From: Patescibacteria group bacterium
GTDB lineage: Bacteria > Patescibacteriota > Minisyncoccia > Phycocordibacterales > UBA2100
Direction: 5' to 3'
NCBI GenBank assembly: GCA_038064835.1
Contig: JBBTSD010000001.1
Coordinates: 234,361 to 298,360, forward strand
Length of the DNA: 64,000 nt
Shown: positions 26,227 through 56,464 of the stretch, in pieces
How positions within the stretch are numbered: position 1 is the stretch's first letter
Layout of the letters: each line of letters begins with the position of its first letter
The notes under the pieces: model-generated
Told to the model about the DNA's origin: nothing
What the model saw: only the letters and a program-made list of their open reading frames with translations
Database searches by the model: none
Position numbers and translations under genes: made by a program

Positions 26227-26314
26227 TCAGCTTTAGGGACGAGCCCTCGCACCTACCTGTGCTGCTTTTGCATACGAGAAGATCAGACCTTCTCATTTCC
26301 GCAACCCCCTGCCC

Positions 26315-26355
26315 AAAACCCCATGTCGGACTTACGAAGTCCGACATGGGGTTTT
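26315..26355 (+). terminator. Strong rho-independent terminator after rpoD
   Basis: aaaaccccatgtcggac...gtccgacatggggtttt, a 16-bp stem with flanking A/T runs. Confidence 0.8.
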
Positions 26356-26437
26356 GGAGGGTGTGAGCAGTTACCTCCACAATTTTGCCAGAGAGTAGAC
26401 AATCCACTCGTTCAGGAGTAGATTTTCTGTTCGTCAT

Positions 26438-26974: not shown

Positions 26975-28940
26975 TATTTCTATGGGCTTACTTACTGAAC
27001 TTTTGGTGATTACTGGGTGCGCCGCACCATGTGTCGCGGGTTTTGTGGTTCTCCTTGCCCCGCACCGGAACACGGTCATGCAATCAGTGCTTGTTCTCGG
27101 TTCTCTCGCCGGCTTTTGCGGGACCATCCTTTCGTTCTTTATTGAGAATCCAATTTTCGCGTTGCTCGCACCATACACTATGGTTGACGCGGTGTCTTTG
27201 TTCTTTCTGTTGCTTGTTTTTGCAGGAACGGGCATCACCTCGTTTTTTGCCATCGCGTATGTACCACTATACAAGTATGCATTTCCCGCATCACGCGTGA
27301 ACGGAGCAACAGCATTTTTTGTGACCGGTATGCTGGGTGTTGTAGTTGCAGGGAGCGTTCCGCTGTTCCTTTTCTTTTGGGAAGTAATGTCTATAGCAGC
27401 ATACTTTCTGGTAGTTTCTGATCGTTCGGCAGAATCTATTAAGGCCGGACTCATTTACTTCGTCATGACCCATCTGGGGCTTGTTTCACTCCTTGGTGGA
27501 TTTGCGCTGATTGCGCCCGACTCGATTTTTGCTACCTGGCAAGATGTGGTAATTGCCGCGGGCGGAGCGTCCTACTGGTCGTTGGCGTTTGCCTTCGCGC
27601 TTTTCTGCATTGGATTTGGGTCAAAGGCTGGAATAGTGCCATTTCACGCATGGCTTCCGTATGCTCATCCGCAAGCTCCAAGTCACTCATCCGCACTTCT
27701 CTCTGGCGTTATGCTTCCTGTCGCTGTGTTTGGTTTTATTCGCATCAGCTCGCTATTTCCCTTTATCCCATTTGAATGGGCGTGCATGGTGATTGCGGCA
27801 GGACTCCTCTCCGCCTTCTTCGGGTCACTGCACGCCGCTGTCGAAAAAGATATGAAAAGACTGCTTGCCTATTCGTCAATTGAGCACATGGGGCTGATCT
27901 TTACCGGCATAGGCGTTCTATTGGTCTTGAAAACCGCACCACATGAAATTGCGGGGCCACTCATCGAGGGGGTTTCATTGTTCATAGCGCTTCATCTCGT
28001 CAATCATATGTTTTTCAAGGCAGGGCTTTTTATGTCTGCTGGTATCGTCGCCGCTAAGACACACACACGAAACCTGGATGAGTTGGGAGGTCTCGCAAAA
28101 CGCTGGCCTCTCTTTTCTGGGGGCGTTTTGCTCCTCTCGCTTTCGGCAGCAGCTCTTCCGCCTCTCGGTACTTTTTTTGGTGAGTGGGCTTTGATGCAAT
28201 CACTCGCACTCGGTATTGCTCAGCTACCTTTGCTTTTTGCGGGCGTTCTTTCCATTGTGCTTATGGTTGTCGCGCTCGCTGCTGGTCTTGCGCTCCTGGC
28301 ATCAATCAAATTGTTTAGTGTTGCATTCTTGGGACGAGCGCGTACAGAAAAAGCGGCGCATGTTGAGTCCTTGCCGTGGTCTTTGATGCTGGCTCCTCTG
28401 TTCTGTGCGGTGGGAGGGGTTCTTACTGCATTTATTGCCGTTCCATTTTTTGCGGCCCACACAATGCGGGGGGCAAACATTGTGTTTTCAGACATTAGTC
28501 TTGCCCCGACTGCCAGCGTAAATGTATGGGCGACTGCTGCCACGGTCCTCGTATTGGCCGGTCTCATACTGCTAGTGAGACGCTTGTTTGGTGCAGAAAA
28601 AGTTCGTATCACGGCAACATGGGATTGTGGTGCGCCACTCACGCCACGGATGCAATACACTGCAACAGGATTTGCAGGACCCGTTCGCTTCTTTTTTCGC
28701 CCGTTTCTCTTTTTAAAGAAAACACTCACCGTGACCCCGCTTGCAGGACATTCGTGGATTGCGAGTCGCGTGCTCATTTCAGAAGTAGGATCTGTCTGGG
28801 AGCGATGGGTGTACCAGCCTGTTGCGGATAGTGTGCTTTCAGTCGCGTCGTATGCAGCGCGTATACAAAGCGGAATAGTTCAGGTATATATTCTCATAAT
28901 TTTTGTGACCCTGGTTGCAACACTTACGCTCGCCATATGA
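26958..28940 (+). CDS. NuoL/MnhA-like antiporter-type membrane subunit (HyfB/EhrA-like)
   Basis: 660 aa, about 16 TM segments. WLPYAHPQAPSHSSALLSGV matches the NuoL/M/N signature [22 protein letters not shown]. The start overlaps the stop of the preceding gene. Confidence 0.75.
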   Translation: MREFVDISMGLLTELLVITGCAAPCVAGFVVLLAPHRNTVMQSVLVLGSLAGFCGTILSFFIENPIFALLAPYTMVDAVSLFFLLLVFAGTGITSFFAIAYVPLYKYAFPASRVNGATAFFVTGMLGVVVAGSVPLFLFFWEVMSIAAYFLVVSDRSAESIKAGLIYFVMTHLGLVSLLGGFALIAPDSIFATWQDVVIAAGGASYWSLAFAFALFCIGFGSKAGIVPFHAWLPYAHPQAPSHSSALLSGVMLPVAVFGFIRISSLFPFIPFEWACMVIAAGLLSAFFGSLHAAVEKDMKRLLAYSSIEHMGLIFTGIGVLLVLKTAPHEIAGPLIEGVSLFIALHLVNHMFFKAGLFMSAGIVAAKTHTRNLDELGGLAKRWPLFSGGVLLLSLSAAALPPLGTFFGEWALMQSLALGIAQLPLLFAGVLSIVLMVVALAAGLALLASIKLFSVAFLGRARTEKAAHVESLPWSLMLAPLFCAVGGVLTAFIAVPFFAAHTMRGANIVFSDISLAPTASVNVWATAATVLVLAGLILLVRRLFGAEKVRITATWDCGAPLTPRMQYTATGFAGPVRFFFRPFLFLKKTLTVTPLAGHSWIASRVLISEVGSVWERWVYQPVADSVLSVASYAARIQSGIVQVYILIIFVTLVATLTLAI

Positions 28941-29872
28941 CACTTCTTTTCGCATGTATAAATACCATAGTGATTGTTGCGATCGCCCCACTGACCATTG
29001 GTATAATCCGGAAAGGAAAGGCATATTTGCAGAATAGAAGAGGAGCATCAATTTTTCTCCCATACCTGCAAATTGCGTCACTTATGCGCAAGGAGATGAC
29101 TATAACGGAACATAGCTCATGGGTCTTTCGTAGTGTCCCGTTCGTTGTGCTTGCTAGCGCACTTTTTATAACTATCGCTATTCCTGCGGTGGTTATCGGA
29201 GTGATGCCCAGTGCCCTCACTAATATATTTGTGGTTGTGGGTGCGCTTGCGTTTGGTGCGGTTTTTCTCGTGATGGGCGGAATGGATACCGCTAGCACAT
29301 TTGGCAACATGGGATCCAGTCGAGAAATGACATTATCCGCTCTCGTAGAGCCCGTGATTGTTATCACCCTCTCCACACTTGCACTTCTGGCGGGGAGTTG
29401 GGGAGTGGACGGTATTCTTACAAACGCAGTTTTGAATCCATGGGCAGATGGTGGGGCATTCGCACTCACGCTTTGCGCGCTTCTGTTGATTACACTTCTT
29501 GAAAATGCTCGTTATCCAGTCGACAACCCTGCAACCCATCTCGAGCTGACCATGGTGCATGAGGCAATGATTTTAGAGTACTCGGGCCCGTATCTCGCGC
29601 TACTTGAATATGCAGCGGCAATCAAGCTTACAGTGATGGCTGTTTTTGTAGCAAACCTTGCGCTGCCATACGGACTGGTGGTGGCACCAGTATCGCTTGT
29701 AGGCATTCTGGTGGGCATCAGTTTGTTCTGCGGGAAGGTCGGACTTGCTGCCTTGGTGATTGCGCTAGTAGAGACCCTGGTTGTAAAAATGCGTTTCTAT
29801 CGAATGCAAGAGTATGTGTTACTCTCGCTTGCATTTGCCCTCGCTGGCTTGAGTGTTGCTCTACTCACCTAA
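28937..29872 (+). CDS. NuoH/HycD-like membrane subunit (EhrB-like)
   Basis: 311 aa. IRKGKAYLQNRRGASIFLPYLQ resembles the N-terminal loop motif of the NuoH/HycD family. ATGA start/stop overlap. Confidence 0.65.
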   Translation: MTLLFACINTIVIVAIAPLTIGIIRKGKAYLQNRRGASIFLPYLQIASLMRKEMTITEHSSWVFRSVPFVVLASALFITIAIPAVVIGVMPSALTNIFVVVGALAFGAVFLVMGGMDTASTFGNMGSSREMTLSALVEPVIVITLSTLALLAGSWGVDGILTNAVLNPWADGGAFALTLCALLLITLLENARYPVDNPATHLELTMVHEAMILEYSGPYLALLEYAAAIKLTVMAVFVANLALPYGLVVAPVSLVGILVGISLFCGKVGLAALVIALVETLVVKMRFYRMQEYVLLSLAFALAGLSVALLT

Positions 29873-29880
29873 TACATAGT

Positions 29881-30528
29881 ATGACTTCACTATCAGATAT
29901 AATTGTTATTTTTTCAGGCGGTATCTTGCTGGTGTCATTTTTCATGGTAAGCAGGATGCGCCTGAGGACAATGGTTTCTTTGTTCCGTGCGCAGTCTCTC
30001 TTGCTCGCTGGGTACACCAGTGTACTCGCACTTATTCTGGACGAGCCTGCCATGCTCATACCCGCCGGATTGATATTTGTTGCGAAAGTATTCGCCGTGC
30101 CTTACTTGATTCGTTCGTCCAGTAGGCGGATGAACGCTTCAGAGCGCCTCTCCTCCTTCTTGCGTCCTACAGGGTTATCAATTGCGGCACTTGTTTTAAT
30201 TAGCGGAGCTTTTCTCGTCGCACAATCACTGCCGTTCACTACATCAGAGCAGGGGATTGTGGGTACCGCTTTTGCTCTTATTGCACTCGGGTTTCTTCTG
30301 CTTGTAACACGCACAGATATGTATGGGCAGACGCTCGGTTTTCTGACGCTCGAAAATGGCATTTTTGCTTTCGGGCTTTCGCTCACCCATGGTATGCCGT
30401 TACTTGTCGAGCTCGGCGTTGTATTCGATGTTATGGTTGCATTCCTTCTGATGACGGCACTGTTGGCGAGAGCCCAAAAAGAATACCGATCAGTAGGTAC
30501 TGAAAACTTACGCGAGCTTATCGGCTAA
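29881..30528 (+). CDS. Small polytopic membrane subunit (HyfE/EhrC-like)
   Basis: 215 aa with about 6 TM segments. The size and operon position correspond to HyfE. Confidence 0.45.
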   Translation: MTSLSDIIVIFSGGILLVSFFMVSRMRLRTMVSLFRAQSLLLAGYTSVLALILDEPAMLIPAGLIFVAKVFAVPYLIRSSSRRMNASERLSSFLRPTGLSIAALVLISGAFLVAQSLPFTTSEQGIVGTAFALIALGFLLLVTRTDMYGQTLGFLTLENGIFAFGLSLTHGMPLLVELGVVFDVMVAFLLMTALLARAQKEYRSVGTENLRELIG

Positions 30529-30536
30529 TTACTTGT

Positions 30537-32015
30537 ATGCTTCCTTCTCTCCTACTGCTCTCATCTTTGGCAAGTGGCGTGCTGGTATTTATAGTGCGGC
30601 CCGATCGATTTGTGTGGGGGGTTGCTTTTCTCGGCTCATGCATTGCTCTGGGGTTTGGAGTTTTTGTTGGAGTCATTGCGATCACTGGTGGTGGGATTTT
30701 TGGAGGGGGTGCATGGTACCTCAATGGGATCACCGGCGTTATGGTGGTCTTGATAGCAGTGATTCAATTCACTGCGACACTCGTGAGTATTTCACATCTC
30801 TCACATGAAGTGCATCACCAGGTGGTGACAGTGGCGCAGGCGCGCCGTTACTTTGCACTCCTGTCACTCTTCACTCTTTCTATGTTTGCTAGCGTGATGG
30901 CCAACAACCTGGGCATTCTGTGGGTTGCTCTGGAAGCAACGACCCTCGCAACCACGCTTCTTGTCGCATTCTATGCCCGTCCAGGATCACTGGAGGCCGC
31001 GTGGAAGTATCTCACGCTCTGTTCTGTAGGAATTGCTATCGGACTCTTGGGTCTTTTTGTGGCCTACTATGCTGCCTATGTTGCCCATGTGGGCGATCGC
31101 CTCACCAGTATCCAGTGGACAACATTGTTCGAAAACGCACACCTCCTTTCTCCCGAACTTATGCAGTTTGCATTTGTCCTTGTGCTCATCGGTTATGGCA
31201 CTAAGGCGGGATTTGCGCCAATGCACGCATGGCTTCCCGATGCACATTCTCGCGCCCCTGCGCCTATCTCAGCACTTCTTTCCGGAGTGCTTTTACCTGT
31301 TGCTTTTTTTGCAGTGATTCGTTTCAAGGCAATCGTTGATGGAGCGATGGGTGGAAGCGAATGGAGCAGCAGCCTCCTTATCATCTTTGGTGTGTTTTCT
31401 ATAGTAGTTAGCGCGATTTTTATCGTGCGGCAAAGTGATTACAAACGACTGCTTGCCTATTCATCGATCGAACATATGGGTATTGCGGCGTGTGCTTTTG
31501 CACTTGGTGCCTTCGGATCGGTTATTGGTCTAGTGCACATTGTCGGGCACGCTCTCATCAAGTCCGCCTTGTTCTTTGGTGCGGGCGAATTGTTCCTTCG
31601 TTTCAAAACAACGCTCTGTTCCCGTGTTGGTTTTATTTCAGAAACACTTCCACTGACCGCGACATCATTCACTATCGCTCTAGGTGCGTTACTGGCTATC
31701 CCCCCGTCTCCTCTTTTCTTTACTGAGTATCAGCTCGTGTTGTATGGCATGCGCTTTGAGCCGCTTTCTATTTCGCTCCTGCTTGTTGCTTTGGTGGTTA
31801 CCGCGGCTGGCTTCATGAGAACTGTGGTGCCTCTTTTAGTGGCACCAGCGACTGCTGTTGAAACACATGAAGTCCCCAAGGGTGAGTTCTGGACATTGGC
31901 TCATGTAGCAGTGTATGTGCACTTGCTGCTTGCCGTTATGTTGGGTGTTATGGTATGGACGCCACAAGGCCTGGCCTTTTTTGCGCATATTAGTATGGTG
32001 TCACCACACATATGA
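30537..32015 (+). CDS. NuoM/N-like antiporter-type membrane subunit (HyfF/EhrD-like)
   Basis: GYGTKAGFAPMHAWLPDAHSRAPAPISALLSGV is the canonical antiporter-subunit motif. 492 aa. Confidence 0.75.
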   Translation: MLPSLLLLSSLASGVLVFIVRPDRFVWGVAFLGSCIALGFGVFVGVIAITGGGIFGGGAWYLNGITGVMVVLIAVIQFTATLVSISHLSHEVHHQVVTVAQARRYFALLSLFTLSMFASVMANNLGILWVALEATTLATTLLVAFYARPGSLEAAWKYLTLCSVGIAIGLLGLFVAYYAAYVAHVGDRLTSIQWTTLFENAHLLSPELMQFAFVLVLIGYGTKAGFAPMHAWLPDAHSRAPAPISALLSGVLLPVAFFAVIRFKAIVDGAMGGSEWSSSLLIIFGVFSIVVSAIFIVRQSDYKRLLAYSSIEHMGIAACAFALGAFGSVIGLVHIVGHALIKSALFFGAGELFLRFKTTLCSRVGFISETLPLTATSFTIALGALLAIPPSPLFFTEYQLVLYGMRFEPLSISLLLVALVVTAAGFMRTVVPLLVAPATAVETHEVPKGEFWTLAHVAVYVHLLLAVMLGVMVWTPQGLAFFAHISMVSPHI

Positions 32016-33550
32016 CCCTTTCATTATTGCGCGAACAAATAGGTGTGGCACAAGGGTCGAACGATCTTGTTTCGATTGCCAGAGCCGAGTTTCGTACTAT
32101 GGCCGTGCGTTGTGTGCAGGCGGGTGCGCCACTGGTGTTTATGTACGCGCTTGACGAGCGATCGACGCGTCGTGTGTTTGTTGTGCGTGCAGTGTTTTCT
32201 GTGCCTGGATCGGGATTCCTCACCCTCACCGTCGATGTTCCTGAGCAAGAGTTATCCTACCCGTCTCTAACTACGGAAATCATGGCCGCCCACTGGTTCG
32301 AACGGCTTATCTTCGATCAGTATGGTCTAGTGGCTGAAGAGCATCCAGATTGGAGGCGACTCATGCATCATGAAAATATTCCTGCACATGTGTACCCGTT
32401 GCGCAAGGATTTTGCGTGGAACACCAAGCTTCCTTATGCGAGCGAACCATATCCCATGCACGCGGTGCAGGGCGATGGTATCTATGAAATCCCTGTGGGA
32501 CCAATTCACGCAGGAATTATTGAGCCAGGTCACTTTCGTTTCAATGTACGAGGTGAGAGAATCGTCACACTCGAAGGAAAGTTGTTTTTCAAACATAAAG
32601 GAGTAGAAAAACTAGTCGAAGGAAAAACCCCTGCAGAGGCACTGCCTTTTATTGAACGGGTGTCCGGTGACATGGTAGTGGCACATACACTTGCGTTTGC
32701 AGAAGCAGTTGAGCACGCATCCGGCATGTCAATAAGTGCGCGTGCTGATTCGTTGCGTATGCTGTGGCTCGAAATGGAGCGACTCACGGCTCATATCTTT
32801 GACATTGGCAACATGGGGGGTATGGGGACTGGATTTACTTTCATGGCGGCGCAGTGTTTTCGTGTAGTTGAGGAGTTACGACGCATGCACTATGCAATTG
32901 TTGGGCATCGATATCTCCGGGGTGCAATCACGCTTGGCGGCGCTCACGATATTAGTCAAAAGAATAGAGAAGATCTCGATGCGTTACTGACAAAGGTTGA
33001 AACCGAGCTCGAGACGCTTTGCGGGATTGCGTATGCGAATGATGGCCTCATGGAACGATTTGAAACAACCGGGGTTCTTTCTCGTGCTGCAGCGATTGCC
33101 TACGGTGCGCGTGGAGTGCCGGCCAGAGCATCTGGTGTTACTAGTGACATGCGTCGCGATCATCCGTCAGGTGCTTATACTCGCATCCCGGTAACGGTTG
33201 CTACCAAGACTTCTGGGGATGTGCGCGCACGGTTTTCGGTCCGTGTCCTTGAATGTGCAGAATCTCTTCGTTTGGCTCGTCTCTGTTTGACGCAACTGCC
33301 ACAAGGACCGGCATATACAAAGTTTTCGGTGCATGCAGGAAGTTCGCTTGGATGGGCTGAAAGTTTCCGTGGAGCAGTCATTGATTGGGTACGCATTGAC
33401 ACATCGGGAAAGTTGGATCGTGTAGCGATATCCGATCCGTCATTCTGTAACTGGTCACTGTTCGGAGAAATTGGCCCCGGCAACATCGTCCCCGATTTTC
33501 CTTTGTGTAACAAAAGCCTTAACCTGTCGTACTCAGGAACCGATCTGTAG
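32012..33550 (+). CDS. Fused NuoC-NuoD / hydrogenase large-subunit homolog without Ni-Fe binding cysteines (EhrL-like)
   Basis: N-terminal NuoC-like region, then a NuoD/HycE-like region (GPIHAGIIEPGHFRF). No N-terminal CxxC is present. The C-terminal motif is DPSFCNW instead of DPCxxCxxH. ATGA overlap with the upstream gene. Confidence 0.75.
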   Translation: MTLSLLREQIGVAQGSNDLVSIARAEFRTMAVRCVQAGAPLVFMYALDERSTRRVFVVRAVFSVPGSGFLTLTVDVPEQELSYPSLTTEIMAAHWFERLIFDQYGLVAEEHPDWRRLMHHENIPAHVYPLRKDFAWNTKLPYASEPYPMHAVQGDGIYEIPVGPIHAGIIEPGHFRFNVRGERIVTLEGKLFFKHKGVEKLVEGKTPAEALPFIERVSGDMVVAHTLAFAEAVEHASGMSISARADSLRMLWLEMERLTAHIFDIGNMGGMGTGFTFMAAQCFRVVEELRRMHYAIVGHRYLRGAITLGGAHDISQKNREDLDALLTKVETELETLCGIAYANDGLMERFETTGVLSRAAAIAYGARGVPARASGVTSDMRRDHPSGAYTRIPVTVATKTSGDVRARFSVRVLECAESLRLARLCLTQLPQGPAYTKFSVHAGSSLGWAESFRGAVIDWVRIDTSGKLDRVAISDPSFCNWSLFGEIGPGNIVPDFPLCNKSLNLSYSGTDL

Positions 33551-38850: not shown

Positions 38851-39669
38851 ATGAACATACTTGACGCGATTATACTCGGAGTGGTGCAGGGGCTCACTGA
38901 ATTCCTGCCTGTTTCTTCGTCCGGTCACCTTATTTTGGCTCGTGAGCTGTTTGGCGTTGGTATAGAGGGGGGACTTGCATTTGATGCAGCCCTTCATTTT
39001 GCGACCGCATGCGCTGTGATAATGTACTTCCGCGCTGACATAGTCGTCCTTGTGCAGTCGTGCTTTCGATTCATTATGCGTCATGAGGACTCTGCGGACG
39101 GCAAGGCTATGATGTGGGGCATTGCCCTTGCAACTATCCCCGCATTCGCACTAGGCCTTTTGCTTGAAAGTGTCATGGAAACAGTCTTTCGAAATGGCTC
39201 GTTGGTGGCAGGTACGCTTGTCGCAGGATCAGTAATTATGTATGCGGCAGAAAAATGGGTGTCGGTGGACACTAAAAGCCAAGTACCCACATTACGCACA
39301 GCGTTTCGGATAGGGCTCTTTCAATCACTCGCCTTGATTCCTGGTATGAGCAGATCGGGTATGGCTATTGCGGGAGGTATGTTTTTAGGGCTTTCACGAG
39401 AAGCGTCGGCGCGGTTTGCATTTCTGATTGCTGTGCCACTTATGCTGGGCGCCGGCTTGAAAAAAATTATAGACCTGGGGGCTGAAGGGTTGGCGGCGGA
39501 GGGAAATATATTGGCGGCGGGGATGATCACCGCGTTTTTGGTCGGGGTGTTCGTTATTCACTACTTGATGCAGTTTTTGCGTACGAATTCACTTACGGTA
39601 TTCATATGGTATCGCATGATCCTGGCGATGCTAGTACTTGGATCTATATGGCTAGTACCCCATTCGTAA
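38851..39669 (+). CDS. uppP: Undecaprenyl-diphosphatase
   Basis: GVVQGLTEFLPVSSSGHL and PGMSRSG are BacA/UppP motifs. The last 5 codons and the stop lie inside MITE-B copy 2. Confidence 0.9.
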   Translation: MNILDAIILGVVQGLTEFLPVSSSGHLILARELFGVGIEGGLAFDAALHFATACAVIMYFRADIVVLVQSCFRFIMRHEDSADGKAMMWGIALATIPAFALGLLLESVMETVFRNGSLVAGTLVAGSVIMYAAEKWVSVDTKSQVPTLRTAFRIGLFQSLALIPGMSRSGMAIAGGMFLGLSREASARFAFLIAVPLMLGAGLKKIIDLGAEGLAAEGNILAAGMITAFLVGVFVIHYLMQFLRTNSLTVFIWYRMILAMLVLGSIWLVPHS

Positions 39670-39802
39670 AATTTTGTCCATAAAACCGCATAATCGTGGC
39701 TGCGGCTCGGCAAAAATTCCTAGCCAATGCCTCTGCATTTTTCAGATATGGGGAAGATTATGAACAGCTACTTAGGACAAAATTTTACGAATGGGGTACT
39801 AG
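39652..39802. mobile_element. MITE-like element, family B, copy 2 (151 bp, perfect 28-bp terminal inverted repeats)
   Basis: ctagtaccccattcgtaaaattttgtcc and ggacaaaattttacgaatggggtactag are exact inverted complements. The first 88 bp match 7502..7589. Confidence 0.65.
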
Positions 39803-40422: not shown

Positions 40423-40609
40423 CACTTAGGGCACTTCCATAAATAACACCATCATCTTTCGCCCACTGCATCACCGTATGCAACCCTTGCTCTGTCGCGA
40501 AATATCTCGGCGTACTTATAGTACGACTCGATATTTCACTCGGTCGCAAGGGCCGTCTACGGTGCGCATTAAGCGAAATCTGAAGCAGTTATTTACGGAA
40601 GTGCCCTAA
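40423..40609. mobile_element. MITE-like element, family A, copy 2
   Basis: About 99% identical to 4225..4411 (one internal mismatch), with the same terminal inverted repeats. Confidence 0.65.
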
Positions 40610-41202: not shown

Positions 41203-42459
41203 CTATCCCTGCGCCGATAACAAGTGTGATGCGATGCGATCCGCGGCGAGGACTGTTTCTTTTGCTGAAGGAAGGTGTTTGAGAGTGTACTGCCCGGTCT
41301 CGCGTTCGTGTGAACCGATGCAAATGATCGAGGATATACCCATCTTGAGCGCGTGTTTAATCTGGTCCCCTGCGCGCTTGCCAGAAAAATTGACGGCGAC
41401 AGTTACATCTTCGGTACGCAAATCATGCGCCAGCTTCATTGCGTGTGCCATGTGCCCCGGTTCGAGGACACATAACATGAGCTCGGTTGCGGGTGTGTAT
41501 GAAGGGAGTAAGCCGTGGGTATCGAGGAAGTCGCGGGCCGTGACATCGCCCATGCCAAACCCGACAGCGCTCATTTGCTCGTCGTCAAAGAGCCCAAAGA
41601 GATTGTCGTAACGACCGCCACCAAAAAGAGAGCGGGTGTTCTCGGGCGAGGTGTCGAACACTTCAAAAATCATACCTGTGTAATAGTCGAAGCCGCGTAC
41701 GATACTGGTGTCTATGTGCACATTTTCAATACCAAGTGTGTAGAGTAAGGAAAGTAGCTCCTCAAGATAGGCGCTTGAATTTGCGCGTGCAAGTTCCTTT
41801 TCAACAATGGCGGCGCGATCGGCTCCGATGTGCCCTACCAGCTGTGCACTAAAGTCGTCAATCTTGTCCCTACGGTCGAGCAGACGCATGACAAAGGATT
41901 TCTGGCTATCATCAAGTTCAGTTTTCGTAAATATTTCATTGAGAAGACGGCGGTCATTCACGCGAATTTCGAAAGCTTGCGGGGATGCACCCATGTCGAG
42001 CATAAGCTGGTGGGCGAGTGCGATGATTTCCGCGTCGGCTTCTACGCCCGGTGCGCCAAAAATATCAGCATTGAGCTGCCAGTGCTCGCGCACACGCCCT
42101 CGCTGTGGGCGCTCATAGCGAAACATATTGGCTATGGTGTACCAGCGTAATGGAAAGACCAGCTCGCGTCTTTTTCCGGCAACCATGCGGGTGACTGTAG
42201 GGGTCATCTCTGGGCGAAGAGTGACTTCGCGCCCGCCACGATCCGTGAAAGTGTAAGTCTGATCATTTACGATTTCTTCGCTCGTCTTGCTGCGGTAGAG
42301 TTCTGCGGGTTCAAGAATGCTGGCATGGTAGGATTCGTATCCAAAGCGTTCGCAGGTTGTGCGCATCGTTTCAAAGAGGTACTCCTGAATGAATTGGTCT
42401 TGCGGGTAAAAATCCCGAACACCCTTGTACGACTCGGTAGAAAGTTTCTGGTTACTCAT
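41203..42459 (-). CDS. hisS: Histidine--tRNA ligase
   Basis: Class II motifs: GVRDFYP, RYERPQRGR and GGGRYD. 418 aa. Confidence 0.9.
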   Translation of the reverse strand: MSNQKLSTESYKGVRDFYPQDQFIQEYLFETMRTTCERFGYESYHASILEPAELYRSKTSEEIVNDQTYTFTDRGGREVTLRPEMTPTVTRMVAGKRRELVFPLRWYTIANMFRYERPQRGRVREHWQLNADIFGAPGVEADAEIIALAHQLMLDMGASPQAFEIRVNDRRLLNEIFTKTELDDSQKSFVMRLLDRRDKIDDFSAQLVGHIGADRAAIVEKELARANSSAYLEELLSLLYTLGIENVHIDTSIVRGFDYYTGMIFEVFDTSPENTRSLFGGGRYDNLFGLFDDEQMSAVGFGMGDVTARDFLDTHGLLPSYTPATELMLCVLEPGHMAHAMKLAHDLRTEDVTVAVNFSGKRAGDQIKHALKMGISSIICIGSHERETGQYTLKHLPSAKETVLAADRIASHLLSAQG

Positions 42460-43021
42460 GTTGATTGCGCTGACTCATAATATCCTTGAAGTCGGAGTCG
42501 TTTGGGTTCTTGGCAAACCGGTCTGCTTGGGTGAGGACAAAGCGCTTCACCTCCTCGGGGCGAGGGATGTCGTGCATCAGCACATCGTTTTCCGACGCTC
42601 CCGCGCTCTGAACGCGCAGTGTACCAAAATCGAGTACTGTTTCAATGAAGTTCCCGTAGCGCACAGTGGCGTCTTGGATGCGCTCGAGGGGGAGTGTTGT
42701 GACTTCGCGCACAAAAAAGCGAACTTGCTCGACATAGACGACACGGCGTTCGGTGATGACCCACATATCGAGATAATGATTCGTCCAGGCAACAGCCATC
42801 ATCATCCATGCAATCAAAAGCCACAGAGAGCCAAAGAAAAGAACTAGCGCGCCGATAAGTGGATTTGTGCCTAGTGCGCCTGCAAGAAATCCGGCCACAA
42901 TAAAGGGGAGTATGCCGGCGAGCGTCAAGCCGAACAGATTTTCCACAAGGACAAACCAATGCTTACGCACTTTTGCAAGGATGCGTTCGTCTGGATGGAT
43001 GTTGAATGTGGTATGCGACAT
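42452..43021 (-). CDS. Membrane protein with bacterial PH (bPH_2/YdbT-like) domain
   Basis: Two TM helices followed by YLDMWVITERRVVYVEQ, as in the bPH_2 fold. Confidence 0.5.
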   Translation of the reverse strand: MSHTTFNIHPDERILAKVRKHWFVLVENLFGLTLAGILPFIVAGFLAGALGTNPLIGALVLFFGSLWLLIAWMMMAVAWTNHYLDMWVITERRVVYVEQVRFFVREVTTLPLERIQDATVRYGNFIETVLDFGTLRVQSAGASENDVLMHDIPRPEEVKRFVLTQADRFAKNPNDSDFKDIMSQRNQHE

Positions 43022-43022
43022 A

Positions 43023-43244
43023 TCAAAGGATAGTGATCAGAGAAAAAAGCATGATGGCGACAAGTACGACACAACCTATGGCGTAGGTAACTATAGAAAA
43101 GAATGCAACCAGTGGGCTCGCGGCAAATCGTATCCAGTGGTACGAAAGTATAAGTCCGAAGATTGCACTAACAAGCACTGCGAGCGCAAGTAGAATCCAA
43201 AAAAGTGGCGCGAACGCTGCGAATGAGCCAACAGAAGCATCCAT
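43023..43244 (-). CDS. Small membrane protein, hypothetical
   Basis: Two TM helices. ATG at 43244 (track GTG at 43283). Confidence 0.3.
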   Translation of the reverse strand: MDASVGSFAAFAPLFWILLALAVLVSAIFGLILSYHWIRFAASPLVAFFSIVTYAIGCVVLVAIMLFSLITIL

Positions 43245-43315
43245 CGCTTTAGTATGCAACAAGATGACAAAATTGCACGCCACCGATGAGGTAACCCCTC
43301 ACGGGGATTATTAGG

Positions 43316-43457
43316 GAACCTCTGGCAGTAAGGTTTCTGGAGTGTAGGACCGGTTAGCGATCAAGAAAACAAGGAGTGGCTACGACTATGTTTTTGGAAG
43401 CACCCTTTGTGGTGCGGCCTTGGAGCGCACTCCAGAAACCTTACTGCCAGAGGTTCC
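43316..43457. repeat. 29-bp perfect inverted repeat enclosing an 83-nt loop that contains an RBS plus 28-codon ORF
   Basis: ggaacctctggcagtaaggtttctggagtg at 43316-43344 pairs with cactccagaaaccttactgccagaggttcc at 43428-43457. aaggag at 43371-43376 and ATG at 43388. Confidence 0.55.
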
Positions 43458-43570
43458 TCACTCGGAGGTGTGAGAGGTTTTACACCGAGTAGGTAAATTC
43501 CCTTGCGTGGCGGCATGCAGTTACGCTGGAGGATTCATTCACGGAAGGTGGTATCGGGTATACTGCCTAC

Positions 43571-44152
43571 ATGACACCGCGCGAGAAAAGACTACACGAT
43601 GTTGTTCGCGCACGGCGACGGGGTATCAGGATTATTCTGGAAGATATTCATGACCCGCACAATGCAGGGGCAATCATGCGCACGGCAGATGCTTTCGGCA
43701 TTCAGGAAGTGTGGTTTATCTTTGCGCAGGAAAAGCCCTACAATCCCAGGCGTGTGGGCAAGGGGTCATCGAGCTCGGCCAATAAATGGCTTTCTTTTCG
43801 GATCTTTCAGAGTACTGAAGACTGCGTCGCGGCGCTTGCAGTAGAAGAATGTGTATCTGTCGCAACGACCCTTCACGGAGGTGTGCCTATAGGAGAGGTC
43901 GCTCTTGAGAGTTTTCCAGAGGTGGCTCTGTGGGTAGGGAACGAGCATCGAGGACTTTCAGAGGTAGCGATCGCTTCCGCCGCTGTGCGTGTACTGCTCC
44001 CTATGGAGGGAATGGTCGAGAGTTTGAATGTTTCAGTCGCCACAGCGTTGTGCATTCAGTATCTCGTTGGGGCACGCATCCGTGCGGGGAAAGACGAGCG
44101 ATTGACCGACACTGAGGCTACAGCGCTTGCACAAGAGTTTCTTGCGCGGTAG
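43571..44152 (+). CDS. SpoU/TrmH-family RNA 2'-O-methyltransferase
   Basis: DPHNAGAIMRTA, GNEHRGLS and ESLNVSVA are SPOUT motifs. Confidence 0.75.
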   Translation: MTPREKRLHDVVRARRRGIRIILEDIHDPHNAGAIMRTADAFGIQEVWFIFAQEKPYNPRRVGKGSSSSANKWLSFRIFQSTEDCVAALAVEECVSVATTLHGGVPIGEVALESFPEVALWVGNEHRGLSEVAIASAAVRVLLPMEGMVESLNVSVATALCIQYLVGARIRAGKDERLTDTEATALAQEFLAR

Positions 44153-44163
44153 TTTTTTCTTTC

Positions 44164-44613
44164 ATGACTAAAATTATCAAAATATCTGTGCGGCCTGCAC
44201 AAACAGGCGAAGGTCTTTTTGCTGATGCACCAATCCTCGAAGGTTCGGTGATTGTCGAGTATACCGGAGTCACTATGCCGACAACTGTTGCCGATACGCT
44301 CGCATCCCGTTTTCTCTTTGATTTGGAGAATGGGTGGACCATCGACGGAGAAGCCAAGAGCAACACCGCGCGTTATGTGAACCATGCCTGTGATCCCAAT
44401 AGTGAGGCAGAGATTGAAGGGAAACGCGTTTTGTTTCGGGCGGCGCGTAACATAGCTGCCGGAGAAGAAATAACTATCGATTATGGAGAAGAATATTTTG
44501 ATGAGTATATAAAACCGTATGGATGTTTGTGCGAGGAGTGTAAGAAAAAGCCGTCAGGTAAATACCTAACGGCTACTCCACCAACGACGGGGACGAACGG
44601 GGTGAATCGGTAG
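44164..44613 (+). CDS. SET-domain protein (putative lysine methyltransferase)
   Basis: ARYVNHACDPN, EEITIDYG and the post-SET CLCEEC. Confidence 0.75.
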   Translation: MTKIIKISVRPAQTGEGLFADAPILEGSVIVEYTGVTMPTTVADTLASRFLFDLENGWTIDGEAKSNTARYVNHACDPNSEAEIEGKRVLFRAARNIAAGEEITIDYGEEYFDEYIKPYGCLCEECKKKPSGKYLTATPPTTGTNGVNR

Positions 44614-45090
44614 GTGCGGATGAACCAGCATCTCGTTGATCGCTTGAACAACCACATCGGGTGTCGTGCGCGCACCAAAAAGGGTATTCCACGCATCCCG
44701 TTGGTCCCCGGTCATTTTCGAGTGAATATTTCTGAGATTCCCACCACGACCATGTCCAGACCAAGGGCGGAGACGAAACCATCCGCCAGTACTCTCCTCC
44801 TGTTCAGTTTCTTTGCACACAAAACGCAGTCGCTTTTCTCCCTTAAAGATGTAGCCCCATGCCATCCATACCGTCAGCTGGATTGCGATCTCTCGTGAGG
44901 TTTTGTTGCGAAAGATTTCATGCCAGTGAGCATGGAGAACCTGATTGATTTCGACAAGATTTTCAGGACTGTTGTCGCCACCGCGGCTACGCGGAAGACG
45001 ATGATGTATATTACGCGGCCCTGTTCGTAGGTGGGCGCGTACATCCTCGATTGCTCGTTTGGTGCCATGAGCTTCGTCTGGCTTTGGCAC
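44566..45090 (-). CDS. HNH-like nuclease domain protein (cysteine-less HNH), hypothetical
   Basis: HHRLPRSRGGDNSPENLVEINQVLHAHWH follows the H-x(P)-GG-N-L-H-H spacing of the HNH motif. GTG start with a GAGGAAAGGGG RBS. Its 3' end overlaps the SET gene by 48 bp. Confidence 0.4.
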   Translation of the reverse strand: MPKPDEAHGTKRAIEDVRAHLRTGPRNIHHRLPRSRGGDNSPENLVEINQVLHAHWHEIFRNKTSREIAIQLTVWMAWGYIFKGEKRLRFVCKETEQEESTGGWFRLRPWSGHGRGGNLRNIHSKMTGDQRDAWNTLFGARTTPDVVVQAINEMLVHPHLPIHPVRPRRWWSSR

Positions 45091-51584: not shown

Positions 51585-51854
51585 CGATCTCTCCTTTCCT
51601 TCATTGTGTTTCAACTTGGACCAGCTCAGAGAGCTAGCTGTCGGTATTATATCATATACACATAGAAAAGCAATCTATAGGACAGTAAAGGACATCGTGT
51701 CCTTTACATGCTGGTGCAAGGATACCACCCGAAAAAAAGGAGTTCCCACATCAAAGAACAGTAATCGGCACAAGTCCATTACTTTACGAGGATGTGCGTG
51801 GTACTGTTGCCCATATTTTAGTAATCGCCGTTATTAATACAGAAATTATTTATA

Positions 51855-54800
51855 TGTTCGTGCGCAATCATCAAGGTGGAAAAAAGGGGTGGATGCAAGT
51901 GGCCCATAGCGCAAAGAAAGGCTTATCAGTTTTTGCAATCGTTGCTCTCGTTGTGATGAGCGTTCCTACCAGCGTTGTGCTTGCCGCGATTAGTTTTGGC
52001 TCCGTTGCTTCCGCAGCAAATGAATCAAGTCCTGGTAGCACTGACGACATAACAATTACTAAGCCAGCGTCCACCGTTTCTGGCGATTTTCTTGTCGCCG
52101 GGATTACCATCAATGGTGGTGATGAGGTGGATATCAACTCTGTCCCGAGTGACTGGGTCCTCATAGAACGCACAGATAATGACGACGATGTGATGTTGGC
52201 GACCTATTACAAATTTGCAGGTGGTTCTGAACCAGCCTCCTATACTTGGTCTTTTGACCGTGACGACAGCGGTGATGTACGCGCTGCGGGTGGTATTATA
52301 AGATACACGGGAGTACACACATCCTCTCCAATAGACGAAGAAGCGGAGAATGAGGGTGGGGACGATGAGCTCGATGCCCCCTCGGTAGATACAGACTATG
52401 CGAATGACATGGTCGTTGTATTCTATGCCCAAGATGACAACCGGGTGCATTCGACACCTTCGGGCACGACAGCTCGCTTTGATGCGGTCAACCCGGATAG
52501 TTCTGGCCCTCGTGTTTCTTCGGCAGATTTTGTCCAAGCGAGCGCAGGAGCAACTGGCGTCAAGACTGCGGAGATTGATGGCAACGAAGATTGGATTGCC
52601 CAAACAGTCGCGCTTCGCATGGCCCCGACCGCGTCAATCACCATTGTGAAAGAGGCGACTCCTGAACACTCGCAAAATTTTGAGTTCTCCACTTCAGGCG
52701 AAGGTCTTTCCGATTTTCTCCTTGACGACGATGCCGACGAAACGCTTTCAAACTCCGTTGTGTTCGACGAACTTGAGGCCGGAGTCTACTCAATCACAGA
52801 AGATGTAGTTGCTGGATGGACACAAACGAGTGCTGTTTGCTCTGACGGGAGCCTCGTTTCAGCCATAGATCTTTCTGAAGACGAGGACATCACATGTACA
52901 TTTGCTAACACTAAGCTCAGCTCAATCACTATCGTGAAGGACACAGTGCCGAATGACGCGCAAGATTTCGCGTTCAGCACCACAGGCACAGGTCTATCCG
53001 CCTTCTCGCTGGATGACGATGCCGACGGCACGCTCTCAAACACGAAGGTGTTTAGCGACCTCGTCGCAGGCGAGTACACCGTGGCAGAAATGACGGTCGC
53101 AGGTTTCGATCTCACCGGCCTTTCCTGCAGTGATGGAAGCGCGGTGGATATAGCAACTGGAACCTCTACGATCAGCCTCGCTGTTGGCGAGGATGTAACC
53201 TGTACCTACACAAACACCAAACGAGCAACATTCCAGATGGTGAAGTACACCGATCCAGCGGTTGGATCCTACGAATTCACTCTTGGCGATGGTGAACTTG
53301 AGCAAGATGGTTTCCCCATGACGCACACATTCACTCCAGCGGGTGAGTGGGGAGTGCTCAGTAATCTTTTGCCAGGTTCCTACAGCCTGAGCGAGACTAT
53401 TCTCGAACTTCCTGAAGAGAACGAGTATCCATCGTGGGAGCGCAACGCATCGTGTAACGGTATCTTTTCTGACCCATCTGGTTCAGTCGAAGGTGAAGGC
53501 CTTGCGCTTTCACTTGTCGCCGGAGAGGAGATGAGTTGTATCGTCAACAATACGCAAAATGCAGTTATCTCGGGCAAAAAGTTTGAGGATACTGACGGCC
53601 ATGGCGCAGAAGCTACAGGCTCGACCTTGAGTGGCTGGACAATCACCATCAAAGAAATCGTGGCGGACATTCCAGAGACTGAAGAAATTGACGAGAGCGA
53701 GGGAACCTATACTAATTCAAACAACACCAACGAGAGTGGCGACTACCTCTTCTTGGTTCCTCCTGGTACCTATCGTGTATGCGAAAGTCCAGAGCCATCC
53801 TGGTACCAATCGTTCCCAACCAGCAATTACAACTGCAACGATGAAGGATCATCCTACGACAATGGCTACGAGATCACTGTCGAGGCAGGTGATGTGGTGA
53901 CCGGCAAAGATTTTGGCAATTATCAACGCGGCACGATTGCTGGCGTGAAGTGGCATGATGCCAACGCAAACGGCACTGTCGAGGATGGAGAGAACGGTCT
54001 CGAAGGGTGGACTATCAATCTCTTAAAAGACCTTGGCGGGGGTTTTGAGTGGGTTGCATCTGCTGTCACTGACTCTGCAGGTGTCTACGAATTTTCAGGT
54101 GAAGGAGCACTTGATCCAGGAACTTACCAGCTTGAAGAGGTACAGCAAGGCGGATGGGTGCAGACATACCCAACCGATCCAACTACCCACACCACCACGC
54201 TCTCATCTGGAGGCTCGAATGTGAACAAGAACTTCGGAAATGTGGGAGATGCAACCATCTCCGGACAAAAGTGGAATGATGAGGACAACAACAGCGAATG
54301 GGATGAAGGCGAAGATGTGGTTACAGGCGATTCATTCACCTTTACGCTCCTACGCGTCGTAGGCGAAGGTGAGCCAGAGTTTGTCATCGCGACCACAACG
54401 ACAACAGGCTTTTACCGATTCATCAACTTGCTTCCAGGAACCTACATCGTTCTTGAGAACTCTGCAGAAGGTTGGATGCAAACATCCCCAACAGATCAAG
54501 GTGGTCACACAGTGACAGTTGGAGCAAACGAAGATTCTACCGACAATGATTTCGGCAACATCGAAGTTATTGAGCTCTATGGCTACAAGTGGAACGATTT
54601 AGACAAGAACGGTATCTGGTACAACGAAGAAGAAGGTGACGATGAGGAGAGTTATGAGCCGGGGATTCAGGACTGGAAGATTCACGCAACCCCGATAGTG
54701 GCAGAAGGTGGGGAAGTTGCGACGACTACCGATCGCATCGCAAAAATCGCACTCACGGACGAGGAAGGAGAATACGAATTTGAATTTCTTGGAAGTGAAA

Positions 54801-56464
54801 GTGGTTGGTGGCGCATTACCGAAGACAATCACCGCGGATGGACACAGACATATCCAGGTGGTATCGACGATGCCTACCATTACGATGTGTTCATCAGTCC
54901 AGAAGGTGATGGTGATGACTGTGAGGGGCCAGGATGGTGCGAGGGCGGATACTACGATTACAACTTCGGCAACTGGCAGTGGCCACTTATCAATGTGTTC
55001 AAGTGGCGTGATGTGAACCGTGATGGTCTATTCCTCGGCGAAGAAGCATCAACCACAGAGCCAGGCGTATCAGGAACACTGATTGGTGTAGGTCGCACTT
55101 TGCCGATTCCAGAGGAATCTCCAGAAGGGACACCGGTGCCTATCGAATTGGTTGCACTTGGTCTCACTGGTAATAATGGCTGGGCGCACATTCCGGTGCC
55201 ACAACAAGGAGATTATGTTGTGTTCGAAGCCGACCATCAATTCTGGGACAAGATGTTCCCTACAGCAACGCGCACTAATCCGTTCGCTCTCCAAAATCCT
55301 AGTGGACAGACTCCGTTTTACATCGACTCATTCTTCGATGTCTTTGCTGAGTTCGGTGCGCCCGCTCCGTTCCCTGGAGCCCCAACAACACAGTTCCCAG
55401 TGGACTCATTCTTTGACATCTTTGTGGACATGAGTGTTGATGGAACACCGACACCAATTCCAGCCCCCACAGCAGTTGATTCATTCTTCGATATCTTTAC
55501 CGAAGTGACTCCGGAACAGCGTGCAGACTCATTCTTCGACATCTTCGTGGAACTTCCTGAAGGTGTGAGCTTGCCTCCATTCCATCTGGACTCATTCTTC
55601 GATGTGTATGTCGGTCCGCTGTCTGGCGGTGAGGTCGCAAACGGTACAACTGGCGGTGAGTACGGTACTTCACCACTTCGTTTCGGCAACGCATTCACTG
55701 TCGCTTGTTCAGACGGTCTTGATAACGATGGTGATGGCCTGATCGATTACCCAGCTGATCCAGGATGTGGTGGCCCACTTGATGGTGATGAACCGCACAC
55801 TACTGGCAGTACCAGTTCGGGTAGTGGCGGCGGAAGCAATGGCCCTATCAGCGGTAGCTTCGGTGGCTCTAATGGTAATGGCCAGGTTCTCGGCGTATCG
55901 ACATCGACGAATGGTCTACCAGGACTTACGATACCTTCAGGCGAACAGTGCACCGACTACATCACTGAAAACATGGGTCCAAACCGCGTAAACAATCCAG
56001 AACAGGTACGACGCCTCCAGGAGATTCTCTTGCGCGAAGGATTCACTGTAGTAGTGAATGGCGTGTTCGACGCGGAAACGCTTGCGGCGGTGAAAGCATT
56101 CCAACTCAAGTACGCGGCAGACATCCTTGCACCGTGGGGTCTCACACAACCGACAGGTTTTGTGTACCTTACGACCAAGAAAAAGCTGAACGAGGTATTC
56201 TGTGGTGTGACAAGAACACTTTCCCCAGCCGAGCAAGCTATTATTGATGGCTTCCGCAGTGGGCAAGGTGGTGGAAATACCGGCGGTGGCGCAGGTGGCA
56301 ACAGTGCTCCTGGTACGCCAACCCCGTCGACTTCTCCGGCTGACACAAACGATGACGCACCAACAGACAATTCGCAGGTAGGTGCGGCAGCAGCGGCAAC
56401 CGACGATACCAAGACCGACAGCAAAGGATTCTGGGGCAAACTCCGTGGATTCTTTGGTCTTTAA
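51855..56464 (+). CDS. Giant surface protein: signal anchor, multiple Cna-B/SdrD-B-like domains, DSFFD[IV]F tandem repeats, C-terminal peptidoglycan-binding domain
   Basis: Repeated modules carry TxxxDxxAGWTQT and EGWxQTYP. DSFFD[IV][FY] occurs six times between 55320 and 55610. PG_binding_1-like NPEQVRRLQEILLREGF...AVKAFQ. Gly-rich tail. The start is uncertain (track GTG 51794; ATGs at 51855 and 51893). Confidence 0.75.

What the first reader, a model, noticed from the sequence alone, without database searches (positions are those of the whole stretch)
43316..43457. 29-bp perfect inverted repeat forming a 142-nt stem-loop that encloses an RBS and a 28-codon Cys-containing ORF
ggaacctctggcagtaaggtttctggagtg pairs perfectly with its reverse complement 83 nt downstream. 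Inside the loop are aaggag at 43371-43376 and ATG at 43388, opening a 28-codon frame (MFLEAPFVVRPWSALQKPYCQRFLTRRCE) that runs into the 3' arm. A further hairpin follows (ctcggaggtgt...acaccgag). The element lies in the 287-bp gap between two minus-strand membrane-protein genes and the TrmH-family gene. A perfect 29-bp stem is unusual for ordinary terminators or attenuators. Possibilities include a type I toxin-antitoxin-like or leader-peptide RNA, a 6S-like or other structured sRNA, or the footprint of another mobile element.
Basis: seen in the sequence. Interest (0 to 1): 0.55.

Follow-up and report, generated by a model that had tools for sequence, protein, structure and literature searches.

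The report
Orphan MITE-like palindromic insertion
A perfect 30-bp inverted repeat in a groundwater Patescibacteria genome is most likely the remnant of a small mobile DNA element inserted between two back-to-back promoters, not an RNA or peptide gene, so it is fairly ordinary.

Summary
The inverted repeat is real: the arms are 43315-43344 and 43428-43457, 30 nt, 100% complementary, with an 83-nt loop. That is far beyond chance, and three independent assemblies carry the identical sequence.

From ATG 43388 the frame has 34 codons, not 28. It runs through the right arm and ends at TAG 43490-43492.

The genome is a Kaiserbacteria-like Patescibacteria MAG. In the three closest relatives with the same gene order, the spacer upstream of TrmH is only 56-72 nt, against 326 nt here. 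Conserved promoter blocks bracket 276 nt of lineage-specific DNA (43282-43557) that contains the repeat.

Both flanking genes appear leaderless, so the element lies upstream of both transcription starts. There is no Rfam match, the loop has no structure beyond the stem, and no homologue covers the whole peptide.

One 46-aa database ORF shares only the first 19 codons. Logan contig breaks at 43391 and 43416 fit a second locus sharing 43362-43445. The window also holds two true multi-copy MITE families.

The best reading is a low-copy MITE-like insertion. It lacks a target-site duplication, a full second copy and a known transposase, so membership is not proven. Interest is low.

The parts
43315..43344 (.). 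Left arm of the perfect 30-nt inverted repeat (GGAACCTCTGGCAGTAAGGTTTCTGGAGTG)
43345..43427 (.). 83-nt loop or internal region. It has no significant structure of its own.
   Evidence: Fold z +0.35 (+ strand) and -0.24 (- strand).
43428..43457 (.). Right arm of the inverted repeat
43362..43445 (.). 84-nt core inferred to be shared exactly with a second locus elsewhere. It covers the 3' 66 nt of the loop plus the inner 18 nt of the right arm, and excludes the left arm and the outer 12 nt of the right arm.
   Evidence: P0125 is identical over nt 43388-43445. Logan contigs end at 43391 and start at 43416. A k=31 graph simulation reproduces those breaks only when such a second locus is added. The left boundary is inferred from the breaks alone.
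43388..43492 (+). 34-codon ORF plus stop, preceded by AAGGAG at 43371-43376. Judged non-functional.
   Evidence: No full-length homologue among 1.84 billion representatives. The exact sequence is not in the 15-billion-protein collection. SD-to-ATG spacing is 11 nt, against 5-9 nt in this genome's SD-led genes.
43461..43489 (+). Second small hairpin (CTCGG-AG-GTGT ... ACAC-CCGAG), not followed by a T-run
   Evidence: z -2.2
43282..43557 (.). 276 nt of lineage-specific extra DNA that contains the repeat. The closest syntenic relative, L099, has 6 nt here.
43251..43278 (-). Inferred promoter of the small-membrane-protein/bPH_2/HisRS operon. On the minus strand: -35 GTGCAA (43278-43273), 16-nt spacer, -10 CATACT (43256-43251), then 6 nt to ATG (43244-43242). 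L099 has the same boxes at the same spacing.
   Evidence: 23/40 ungapped identity, concentrated in the two boxes. Promoter function is inferred.
43559..43573 (+). Inferred leaderless promoter -10 box of the TrmH/SpoU gene: TATACT (43559-43564), 6 nt, then ATG 43571. GTATACTGCC is identical in L099.

Best explanation
The 143-nt element is a non-coding, MITE-like palindromic repeat. That means the footprint of a small non-autonomous mobile DNA element, or of a low-copy repeat family.

It sits inside 276 nt of extra DNA (43282-43557) that this lineage has between the promoter blocks and that L099 lacks. The site is the core of a very compact divergent promoter region, between the small-membrane-protein/bPH_2/HisRS operon (minus strand) and the TrmH-SET-UDG operon (plus strand).

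**Shown:**
- the perfect terminal inverted repeat;
- the extra DNA relative to syntenic relatives;
- genuine multi-copy MITEs in the same genome;
- at least one other locus sharing part of the element.

**Inferred:**
- it arrived by transposition, with a transposase supplied in trans from elsewhere;
- it is not part of either neighbour's mRNA, because both genes have a -10 box 6 nt before their ATG (leaderless);
- its effect, if any, is on DNA. It separates the two promoters and replaces the sequence upstream of the TrmH -10 box.

The SD-like motif and the 34-codon ORF are incidental.
For: - **Anatomy.** 30-nt perfect terminal inverted repeats, 143 nt overall, no coding capacity, intergenic.
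- **Genome context.** The same 81 kb holds two repeat families with the same build. FamB (4227-4412 and 40426-40609) has copies about 99% identical, flanked by TAA/TAA and TTA/TAA. FamA is at 7502-7666 and 39652-39802. There are 7 long inverted repeats against 0 in shuffles.
- **Lineage-specific extra DNA.** Relatives with the same gene order have 56 nt (L099-L102) or 71-72 nt (L103-L105) upstream of TrmH, against 326 nt here. Conserved blocks on both sides bracket the extra 276 nt.
- **Part of it is repeated elsewhere.** P0125, on a 65.7-kb NCBI/ENA contig, matches nt 43388-43445 exactly and then diverges. Its tail is absent from the 81 kb. Logan contig ends at 43391 and 43416 are exactly what a second locus sharing 43362-43445 predicts at k=31.
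- **No sign of RNA or protein function**.
Against: - No target-site duplication flanks the arms: TTAG on the left, TCAC on the right.
- No second full copy was found. There is none in 81 kb of the contig. The outer arm gave 0 matches in GTDB representative genomes and in IMG/VR, and only 5 chance 18-mer matches in JGI metagenomes.
- The segment shared with the second locus is internal and lacks both termini. A transposase should conserve exactly those termini.
- No transposase or recombinase domain occurs in the 81 kb.
- The relatives used as an 'empty site' are distant (TrmH 56-64% identical). The 276 nt may therefore have accumulated in several steps.
Confidence: 0.55

Rival explanations
1. 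A locally made inverted duplication. A 30-nt stretch at the right edge of a pre-existing repeated 84-nt module was copied in reverse 83 nt upstream, by template switching or snap-back repair. On this view the palindrome itself never transposed.
For: - There is no target-site duplication.
- The stem is perfect, which suggests a recent origin.
- The unit shared with the second locus (43362-43445) is not bounded by the arms. The right arm straddles the boundary of the shared unit.
Against: - It needs two events: arrival of the 84-nt module, then the duplication.
- The other inverted-repeat elements in this genome, of the same size class, are demonstrably multi-copy.
- No microhomology is evident at the junctions.
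Confidence: 0.15
2. A REPIN-like doublet: two inverted REP-type sequences separated by a spacer and mobilised as single-stranded DNA by a RAYT/IS200-type tyrosine (Y1) transposase. That mechanism leaves no target-site duplication.
For: - The architecture fits: two 30-nt inverted units, an 83-nt spacer and no duplication.
- Each arm can form a small internal hairpin, GGAACCU/AGGUUUC with the G-U pair, 7 pairs.
Against: - REPINs occur in tens to hundreds of copies together with singlet REPs. Here there are no singlets and no second copy in 81 kb.
- No Y1 transposase domain was seen.
- The arm's internal hairpin is no better than shuffles (z -0.13).
Confidence: 0.08
3. A functional RNA or peptide module. 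The hairpin and the SD-ATG ORF would form a type I toxin-antitoxin, a leader peptide or attenuator, or a small RNA gene, present in two copies.
For: - AAGGAG lies 11 nt before an ATG that opens a 34-codon frame.
- The SD, the ATG and the first 19 codons lie inside the segment shared with the second locus, where a gene caller annotated a 46-aa ORF.
Against: - Identity stops abruptly in mid-ORF and the tails are unrelated. There are no other homologues among 1.84 billion representatives.
- The peptide has no membrane-spanning stretch.
- There is no Rfam hit and no structure in the loop or core beyond shuffles.
- No promoter-like site was found inside the element.
- Both neighbours look leaderless, so this cannot be their leader. 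It is absent from orthologous loci.
Confidence: 0.07
4. An invertible DNA switch (inverton). The arms would be recombination sites, and the 83-bp segment would flip to direct a promoter toward one or the other divergent operon.
For: Perfect inverted repeats flank a short segment that lies exactly between two divergent operons.
Against: - All three assemblies that span the element show the same orientation.
- No recombinase domain occurs in 81 kb.
- No promoter-like site lies in the loop.
- The Logan contig breaks sit inside the loop. Flipping would put them at the loop/arm junctions.
Confidence: 0.05

Closest known systems
Bacterial MITEs, e.g. Correia elements (CREE/NEMIS) of Neisseria
   Same: 100-155 bp, about 26-30-bp terminal inverted repeats, non-coding, intergenic and next to promoters. 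If transcribed they would form a long double-stranded stem. (The description of Correia elements is from general knowledge.)
   Different: Correia elements have hundreds of copies and a TA duplication. This element has no duplication, one full copy plus one partial copy, and no sequence similarity to them.
The two MITE families in the same window (FamA CTAGTACCCC..., FamB GGGCACTTCC...)
   Same: Same genome, same size class (151-186 nt), long terminal inverted repeats, intergenic or at gene ends. FamA is mosaic between copies, much as this element shares only part of itself with its second locus.
   Different: No significant sequence similarity in the arms or interior. FamA and FamB each have two full copies in 64 kb, flanked by TWA or CTAG.
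REPINs (inverted REP doublets mobilised by RAYT transposases)
   Same: Two inverted units plus a spacer, forming a hairpin of about 110-140 nt with no target duplication. (From general knowledge.)
   Different: No population of copies, no singlet REPs and no RAYT gene were found.
Invertons (invertible promoters, such as fimS or the Bacteroides switches)
   Same: Inverted repeats flank a short intergenic segment beside regulated genes.
   Different: No recombinase, no promoter in the segment, and only one orientation observed.
IS5 of E. coli (terminal repeat GGAAGGTGCGAATAAG)
   Same: Both termini begin with GGAA, and the left flank TTAG fits a YTAR-type target.
   Different: Only 8-9 of 30 positions match without gaps, and there is no 4-bp duplication. 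This is not evidence of relationship.

Membership tests
MITE (non-autonomous DNA transposon) | Terminal inverted repeats | tested here: met
   30/30 nt complementary
MITE (non-autonomous DNA transposon) | Small size and no transposase gene | tested here: met
   143 nt. The only ORFs are 34-51 codons and have no full-length homologues.
MITE (non-autonomous DNA transposon) | Target-site duplication flanking the repeats | tested here: not met
   The flanks are ...ATTATTAG and TCACTCGG..., with no direct repeat.
MITE (non-autonomous DNA transposon) | Several dispersed copies with the same termini | tested here: inconclusive
   No second copy in 81 kb. The outer arm is absent from GTDB representatives, IMG/VR and JGI contigs. 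One other locus shares an internal 84 nt. The rest of the genome could not be read.
MITE (non-autonomous DNA transposon) | Presence/absence polymorphism (empty site in relatives) | tested here: inconclusive
   Syntenic relatives have 56-72 nt instead of 326 nt, with conserved promoter blocks on both sides. They are distant, though, and the extra DNA (276 nt) is larger than the element.
MITE (non-autonomous DNA transposon) | Cognate autonomous IS with matching termini | tested here: not met
   No transposase domain in 81 kb and no arm match elsewhere.
REPIN / RAYT system | Many copies plus singlet REPs and a RAYT gene | tested here: not met
   Only 81 kb of the genome was examined.
Rfam RNA families (including 6S and known leaders or sRNAs) | Covariance-model match | tested here: not met
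   0 hits at gathering score in the whole window. At E<=10 the only hit is a chance TarB match outside the element.
Type I toxin-antitoxin | Small hydrophobic membrane peptide conserved across copies, with an antisense RNA | tested here: not met
   The peptide sequence shows no stretch long enough to span a membrane. The second copy diverges after codon 19. An antisense RNA cannot be tested here.
Leader peptide / attenuator of the downstream gene | Lies in the 5' UTR of the regulated gene and is conserved with it | tested here: not met
   TrmH has a -10 box 6 nt before its ATG, a pattern found at 18/77 genes against 2.9% of control ATGs. The element is absent upstream of TrmH orthologues. The transcription start itself is inferred.
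Inverton | Both orientations present in the population, with a recombinase | tested here: inconclusive
   Three of three spanning assemblies have one orientation and no recombinase is nearby. Raw reads were not available.
Intrinsic terminator | Short GC-rich stem followed by a T-run at a gene's 3' end | tested here: not met
   It lies between divergent gene starts, and no terminator-like site falls in the element.

The most novel reading that the evidence does not exclude
The 84-nt core (43362-43445) carries a Shine-Dalgarno motif, an ATG and 19 codons, and recurs exactly at a second locus. It could be a small mobile 'gene-start' or sORF/sRNA module that is expressed. In this reading the 30-bp hairpin at this copy controls its expression, or acts as a regulatory insulator between two leaderless promoters in a reduced Patescibacteria genome.
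Probability: 0.05. Interest if true: 0.55.

Novelty: new member of a known kind. Interest (0 to 1): 0.2.

Why it matters
Small palindromic mobile elements are well known in bacteria. The paper library searched returned no paper about them in Patescibacteria/CPR genomes, only two incidental co-mentions.

This window shows that a reduced genome carries several such families. One element sits in the middle of a 56-nt-class divergent, leaderless promoter region without destroying the conserved promoter boxes.

That is useful for annotating CPR MAGs, because these elements break short-k assemblies and attract spurious small-ORF calls. It is also a natural experiment on how leaderless promoters tolerate new upstream DNA. 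It does not open a new kind of biology.

Tried and rejected
- **Rfam.** Gathering thresholds on the whole window, and E<=10 on 43150-43650: nothing relevant. No tRNA or tmRNA.
- **Outer-arm probes.** The 22-mer gave 0 in GTDB representative genomes. The 18-mer gave 0 in IMG/VR and 5 hits in JGI metagenomes, all chance matches that end at the 18-mer. In hindsight the outer arm was the wrong probe, because the second locus lacks it.
- **Core probe.** 0 in IMG/VR. blastn of the 276 nt against phages and plasmids found no match.
- **Close relatives for a true empty-site test.** None exist. The best TrmH homologue is 64% identical and the best HisRS in GTDB is 65%.
- **DNA of the second locus.** P0125 is not in the contig index. 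A profile search returned only P0125 itself. The 51-aa minus-strand ORF found nothing.
- **Similarity of the arms to other termini.** No robust similarity to the termini of FamA, FamB or the other inverted repeats. The best was a TTAGGG..C.TC match that includes flank bases, p about 0.02-0.08 before multiple testing. Against E. coli IS5 ends: 8-9 of 30.
- **A larger element.** Short matching sequences flanking the hairpins, or at the ends of the 276 nt (TAG...TAG, AGGTAA...AGGTAA, CCGAT/ATCGG), are all short enough to be chance.
- **Tandem-repeat proteins P0121-P0124** from the representative search: artefacts of summing many weak repeats.

Full report
**1. The observation**

- The window has a perfect inverted repeat: arms 43315-43344 and 43428-43457, 30 nt, 100% complementary, 83 nt apart.
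- With up to three mismatches the arm occurs only at these two places in 64 kb. Shuffles gave none.
- I joined the window with two flanking loci of the same contig to make 81 kb. It holds seven inverted repeats with arms >=18 nt and spacers of 20-400 nt. Ten shuffles gave zero. This repeat is the longest and the only 30/30 one.
- As RNA, either strand folds into the expected long hairpin (dG -94.6 and -85.4 kcal/mol; z -8.4 and -9.9). That follows trivially from the repeat.
AAGGAG (43371-43376) and ATG (43388) are correct.
- The ORF is 34 codons, or 38 from GTG 43376. It runs through the right arm and the next hairpin to TAG 43490-43492. It is not a 28-codon frame that merely 'runs into' the arm.
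- The downstream hairpin, 43461-43489, exists but is modest (z -2.2).

**2. It is not an artefact**

- The window comes from NCBI MAG GCA_964361175.1, contig CAYHZP010000001.1 (330,809 bp).
- The same sequence, base for base, spans the element in two replicate Hainich groundwater assemblies from ENA (L004, L091).
- Logan contigs from five sequencing runs cover both arms and most of the loop.

**3. Organism and neighbours**

- HisRS is at most 65% identical to GTDB representatives. These are all Patescibacteria, mostly labelled Kaiserbacteria or Paceibacterota.
- The closest TrmH in 5.8 billion protein clusters is 64% identical. No close relative is available.
- Gene order on the minus strand: HisRS (41203-42459), a bPH_2 membrane protein (42452-43021) and a small membrane protein.
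- Gene order on the plus strand: SpoU/TrmH (43571-44152), a SET-domain protein and UDG.
- Alignment with orthologues puts the small protein's start at ATG 43244. The intergenic region is therefore 43245-43570, 326 nt.

**4. The key comparison**

- The three closest lineages with the same gene order have a very short spacer upstream of TrmH. It is 56 nt in L099-L102 (TrmH 64% identical) and 71-72 nt in L103-L105 (56-59% identical).
- The window and L099 still share recognisable blocks at both edges.
- Left edge: CAT..AGTATG..TTGCACGC, 23/40 identical without gaps. The identities are concentrated in two hexamers with identical spacing.
- Right edge: GTATACTGCC followed by ATG.
- Between these blocks L099 has 6 nt and the window has 276 nt (43282-43557). 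The repeat occupies the middle 143 nt.
- So the hairpin is lineage-specific extra DNA, not a conserved feature of these genes.
- The relatives are distant. The 276 nt need not have arrived in one step, and its other 133 nt match nothing.

**5. Where transcription probably starts**

- Of 77 called genes in the 81 kb, 18 have a TAnnnT box 5-7 nt before the start codon, against 2.9% of control ATGs (p about 1e-11). Only 13 have a Shine-Dalgarno motif.
- TrmH (TATACT, 6 nt, ATG) belongs to this leaderless class.
- The small membrane gene has CATACT, 6 nt, ATG. A GTGCAA box lies 16 nt further upstream, and L099 has both boxes at the same spacing.
- I infer that both divergent genes are transcribed from their ATG, which would leave the element upstream of both mRNAs. 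This inference argues against a leader-peptide, attenuator or 5'-UTR role.
- It also means the extra DNA now supplies whatever lies upstream of the TrmH -10 box.

**6. RNA or peptide function**

- Rfam gives no hit at gathering thresholds in the whole window. At E<=10 the only hit is a chance TarB match outside the element.
- The loop alone and the 84-nt core fold no better than shuffles (z between -1.4 and +0.35).
- No promoter-like or terminator-like site falls inside the element.
- The peptide has no membrane-length hydrophobic stretch.
- Its SD-ATG spacing (11 nt) is longer than in this genome's SD-led genes (5-9 nt).
- None of the three small ORF products is in the 15-billion-protein collection.
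- A full HMMER pass over 1.84 billion representatives found four tandem-repeat artefacts and one real match, P0125.

**7. A second locus**

- P0125 is 46 aa and occurs on two NCBI/ENA contigs, the longer 65,710 nt.
- It is identical to the window ORF for its first 19 residues (nt 43388-43444, plus the T at 43445). After that it is unrelated.
- Its tail occurs nowhere in the 81 kb or in any fetched locus.
- This explained an oddity I had noted earlier. Logan contigs (k = 31) coming from the left end at 43391 in two runs. Those coming from the right start at 43416 in two runs, and at 43411 in a third.
- A k = 31 graph of the locus alone breaks only at the arms. Adding a second sequence that shares 43362-43445 produces breaks at exactly 43391 and 43416.
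- So a second locus, present in the same samples, shares an 84-nt core exactly. The core is the 3' 66 nt of the loop plus the inner 18 nt of the right arm. The second locus lacks the left arm and the outer 12 nt of the right arm.
- I could not retrieve its DNA.
- The abrupt switch from 100% to no similarity in mid-ORF is what a DNA repeat boundary looks like. It is not what a conserved peptide looks like.

**8. Genome context**

- The window contains two clear multi-copy MITE families.
- FamB (4227-4412 and 40426-40609) has copies about 99% identical, with termini GGGCACTTCC...GGAAGTGCCC and flanks TAA/TAA and TTA/TAA.
- FamA (7502-7666 and 39652-39802) has ends CTAG...CTAG. Its left 88 nt are 97% identical between copies, but the middle is not homologous.
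- There are also single palindromic elements at 11228-11352 and 63640-63704.
- The present element has the same build but no significant similarity to any of them.
- No transposase or recombinase domain is encoded in the 81 kb.

**9. Interpretation**

- The best-supported reading (confidence about 0.55) is a low-copy, MITE-like palindromic element or its relic, lying in lineage-specific DNA in the core of a compact divergent promoter.
- The anatomy, the lineage-specific presence, the MITE-rich genome and the partial second copy all point that way.
- It cannot be filed as a proven MITE. There is no target-site duplication, no second copy with the same termini was found, and no cognate transposase is known.
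- My public DNA scans used the outer arm, which the second locus lacks. They do not bear on the core's copy number.
- Rivals are a locally generated inverted duplication around a repeated 84-nt module (0.15), a REPIN-like element that would explain the missing duplication (0.08), a functional RNA or sORF module (0.07), and an inverton (0.05).

**10. Verdict**

The most interesting interpretations are not supported. It is a new, apparently orphan member of a familiar class of small palindromic repeats, in a phylum where the paper library returned no paper about such elements, only two incidental co-mentions. Interest is low, 0.2.

Noticed in passing
window 4227-4412 and 40426-40609: FamB MITE. 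Two copies of about 186 nt are about 99% identical. The termini are GGGCACTTCC...GGAAGTGCCC, with arms of about 44 nt at 80% complementarity. The flanks are TAA/TAA and TTA/TAA, which suggests a TWA target.
   Followed up: partly
window 7502-7666 and 39652-39802: FamA MITE with 28-nt arms beginning CTAG. The two copies share the left 88 nt (97%) and the right 32 nt (88%), but their middles are not homologous, so the family is mosaic.
   Followed up: partly
window 11228-11352; 63640-63704; 26313-26357: Three further single inverted repeats. One has 20-nt arms and an 85-nt spacer, between convergent genes after trmD. One has 22-nt arms and a 21-nt spacer, after a GH130 gene. One has 21-nt perfect arms and a 3-nt loop, just after the sigma-70 gene.
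   Followed up: no
81 kb around the window (77 genes): 18 of 77 genes carry a TAnnnT box 5-7 nt before the start codon, against 2.9% of control ATGs. Only 13 have a Shine-Dalgarno motif. Leaderless transcription therefore looks widespread in this MAG.
   Followed up: partly
window 26438-33550: A cluster encodes a NuoB-like subunit, two Proton_antipo_M proteins, a NuoH-like protein and a NuoC/NuoD ([NiFe] large-subunit-like) fusion. This is a membrane-bound hydrogenase/Mrp-like complex, which I believe is unusual for a Patescibacteria genome.
   Followed up: no
L006-L017 and other GTDB relatives versus window 41203-44613: In most Kaiserbacteria-like relatives the SET gene abuts HisRS directly. 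The bPH_2, small membrane protein and TrmH block lies between them only in a subclade. L103-L105 add a 99-aa gene at the same junction. This divergent junction is therefore a recurrent site of gain and loss.
   Followed up: partly
L002 (ERR3858115) start = window 43411: This Logan contig starts 5 nt to the left of the position the second-locus model predicts (43416). The cause may be a different variant in that sample or assembler behaviour. It remains unexplained.
   Followed up: no
window 44566-45090 (-): A 174-aa ORF overlaps the 3' end of the SET gene. I read an HNH-like motif in it by eye (HRLPRSRGGDNSPENLVEINQVLHAHWH), but it has no Pfam hit.
   Followed up: partly
window 51794-56464: A 1556-aa SpaA/SdrD-repeat surface protein with internal repeats of about 75-111 nt.
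   Followed up: no
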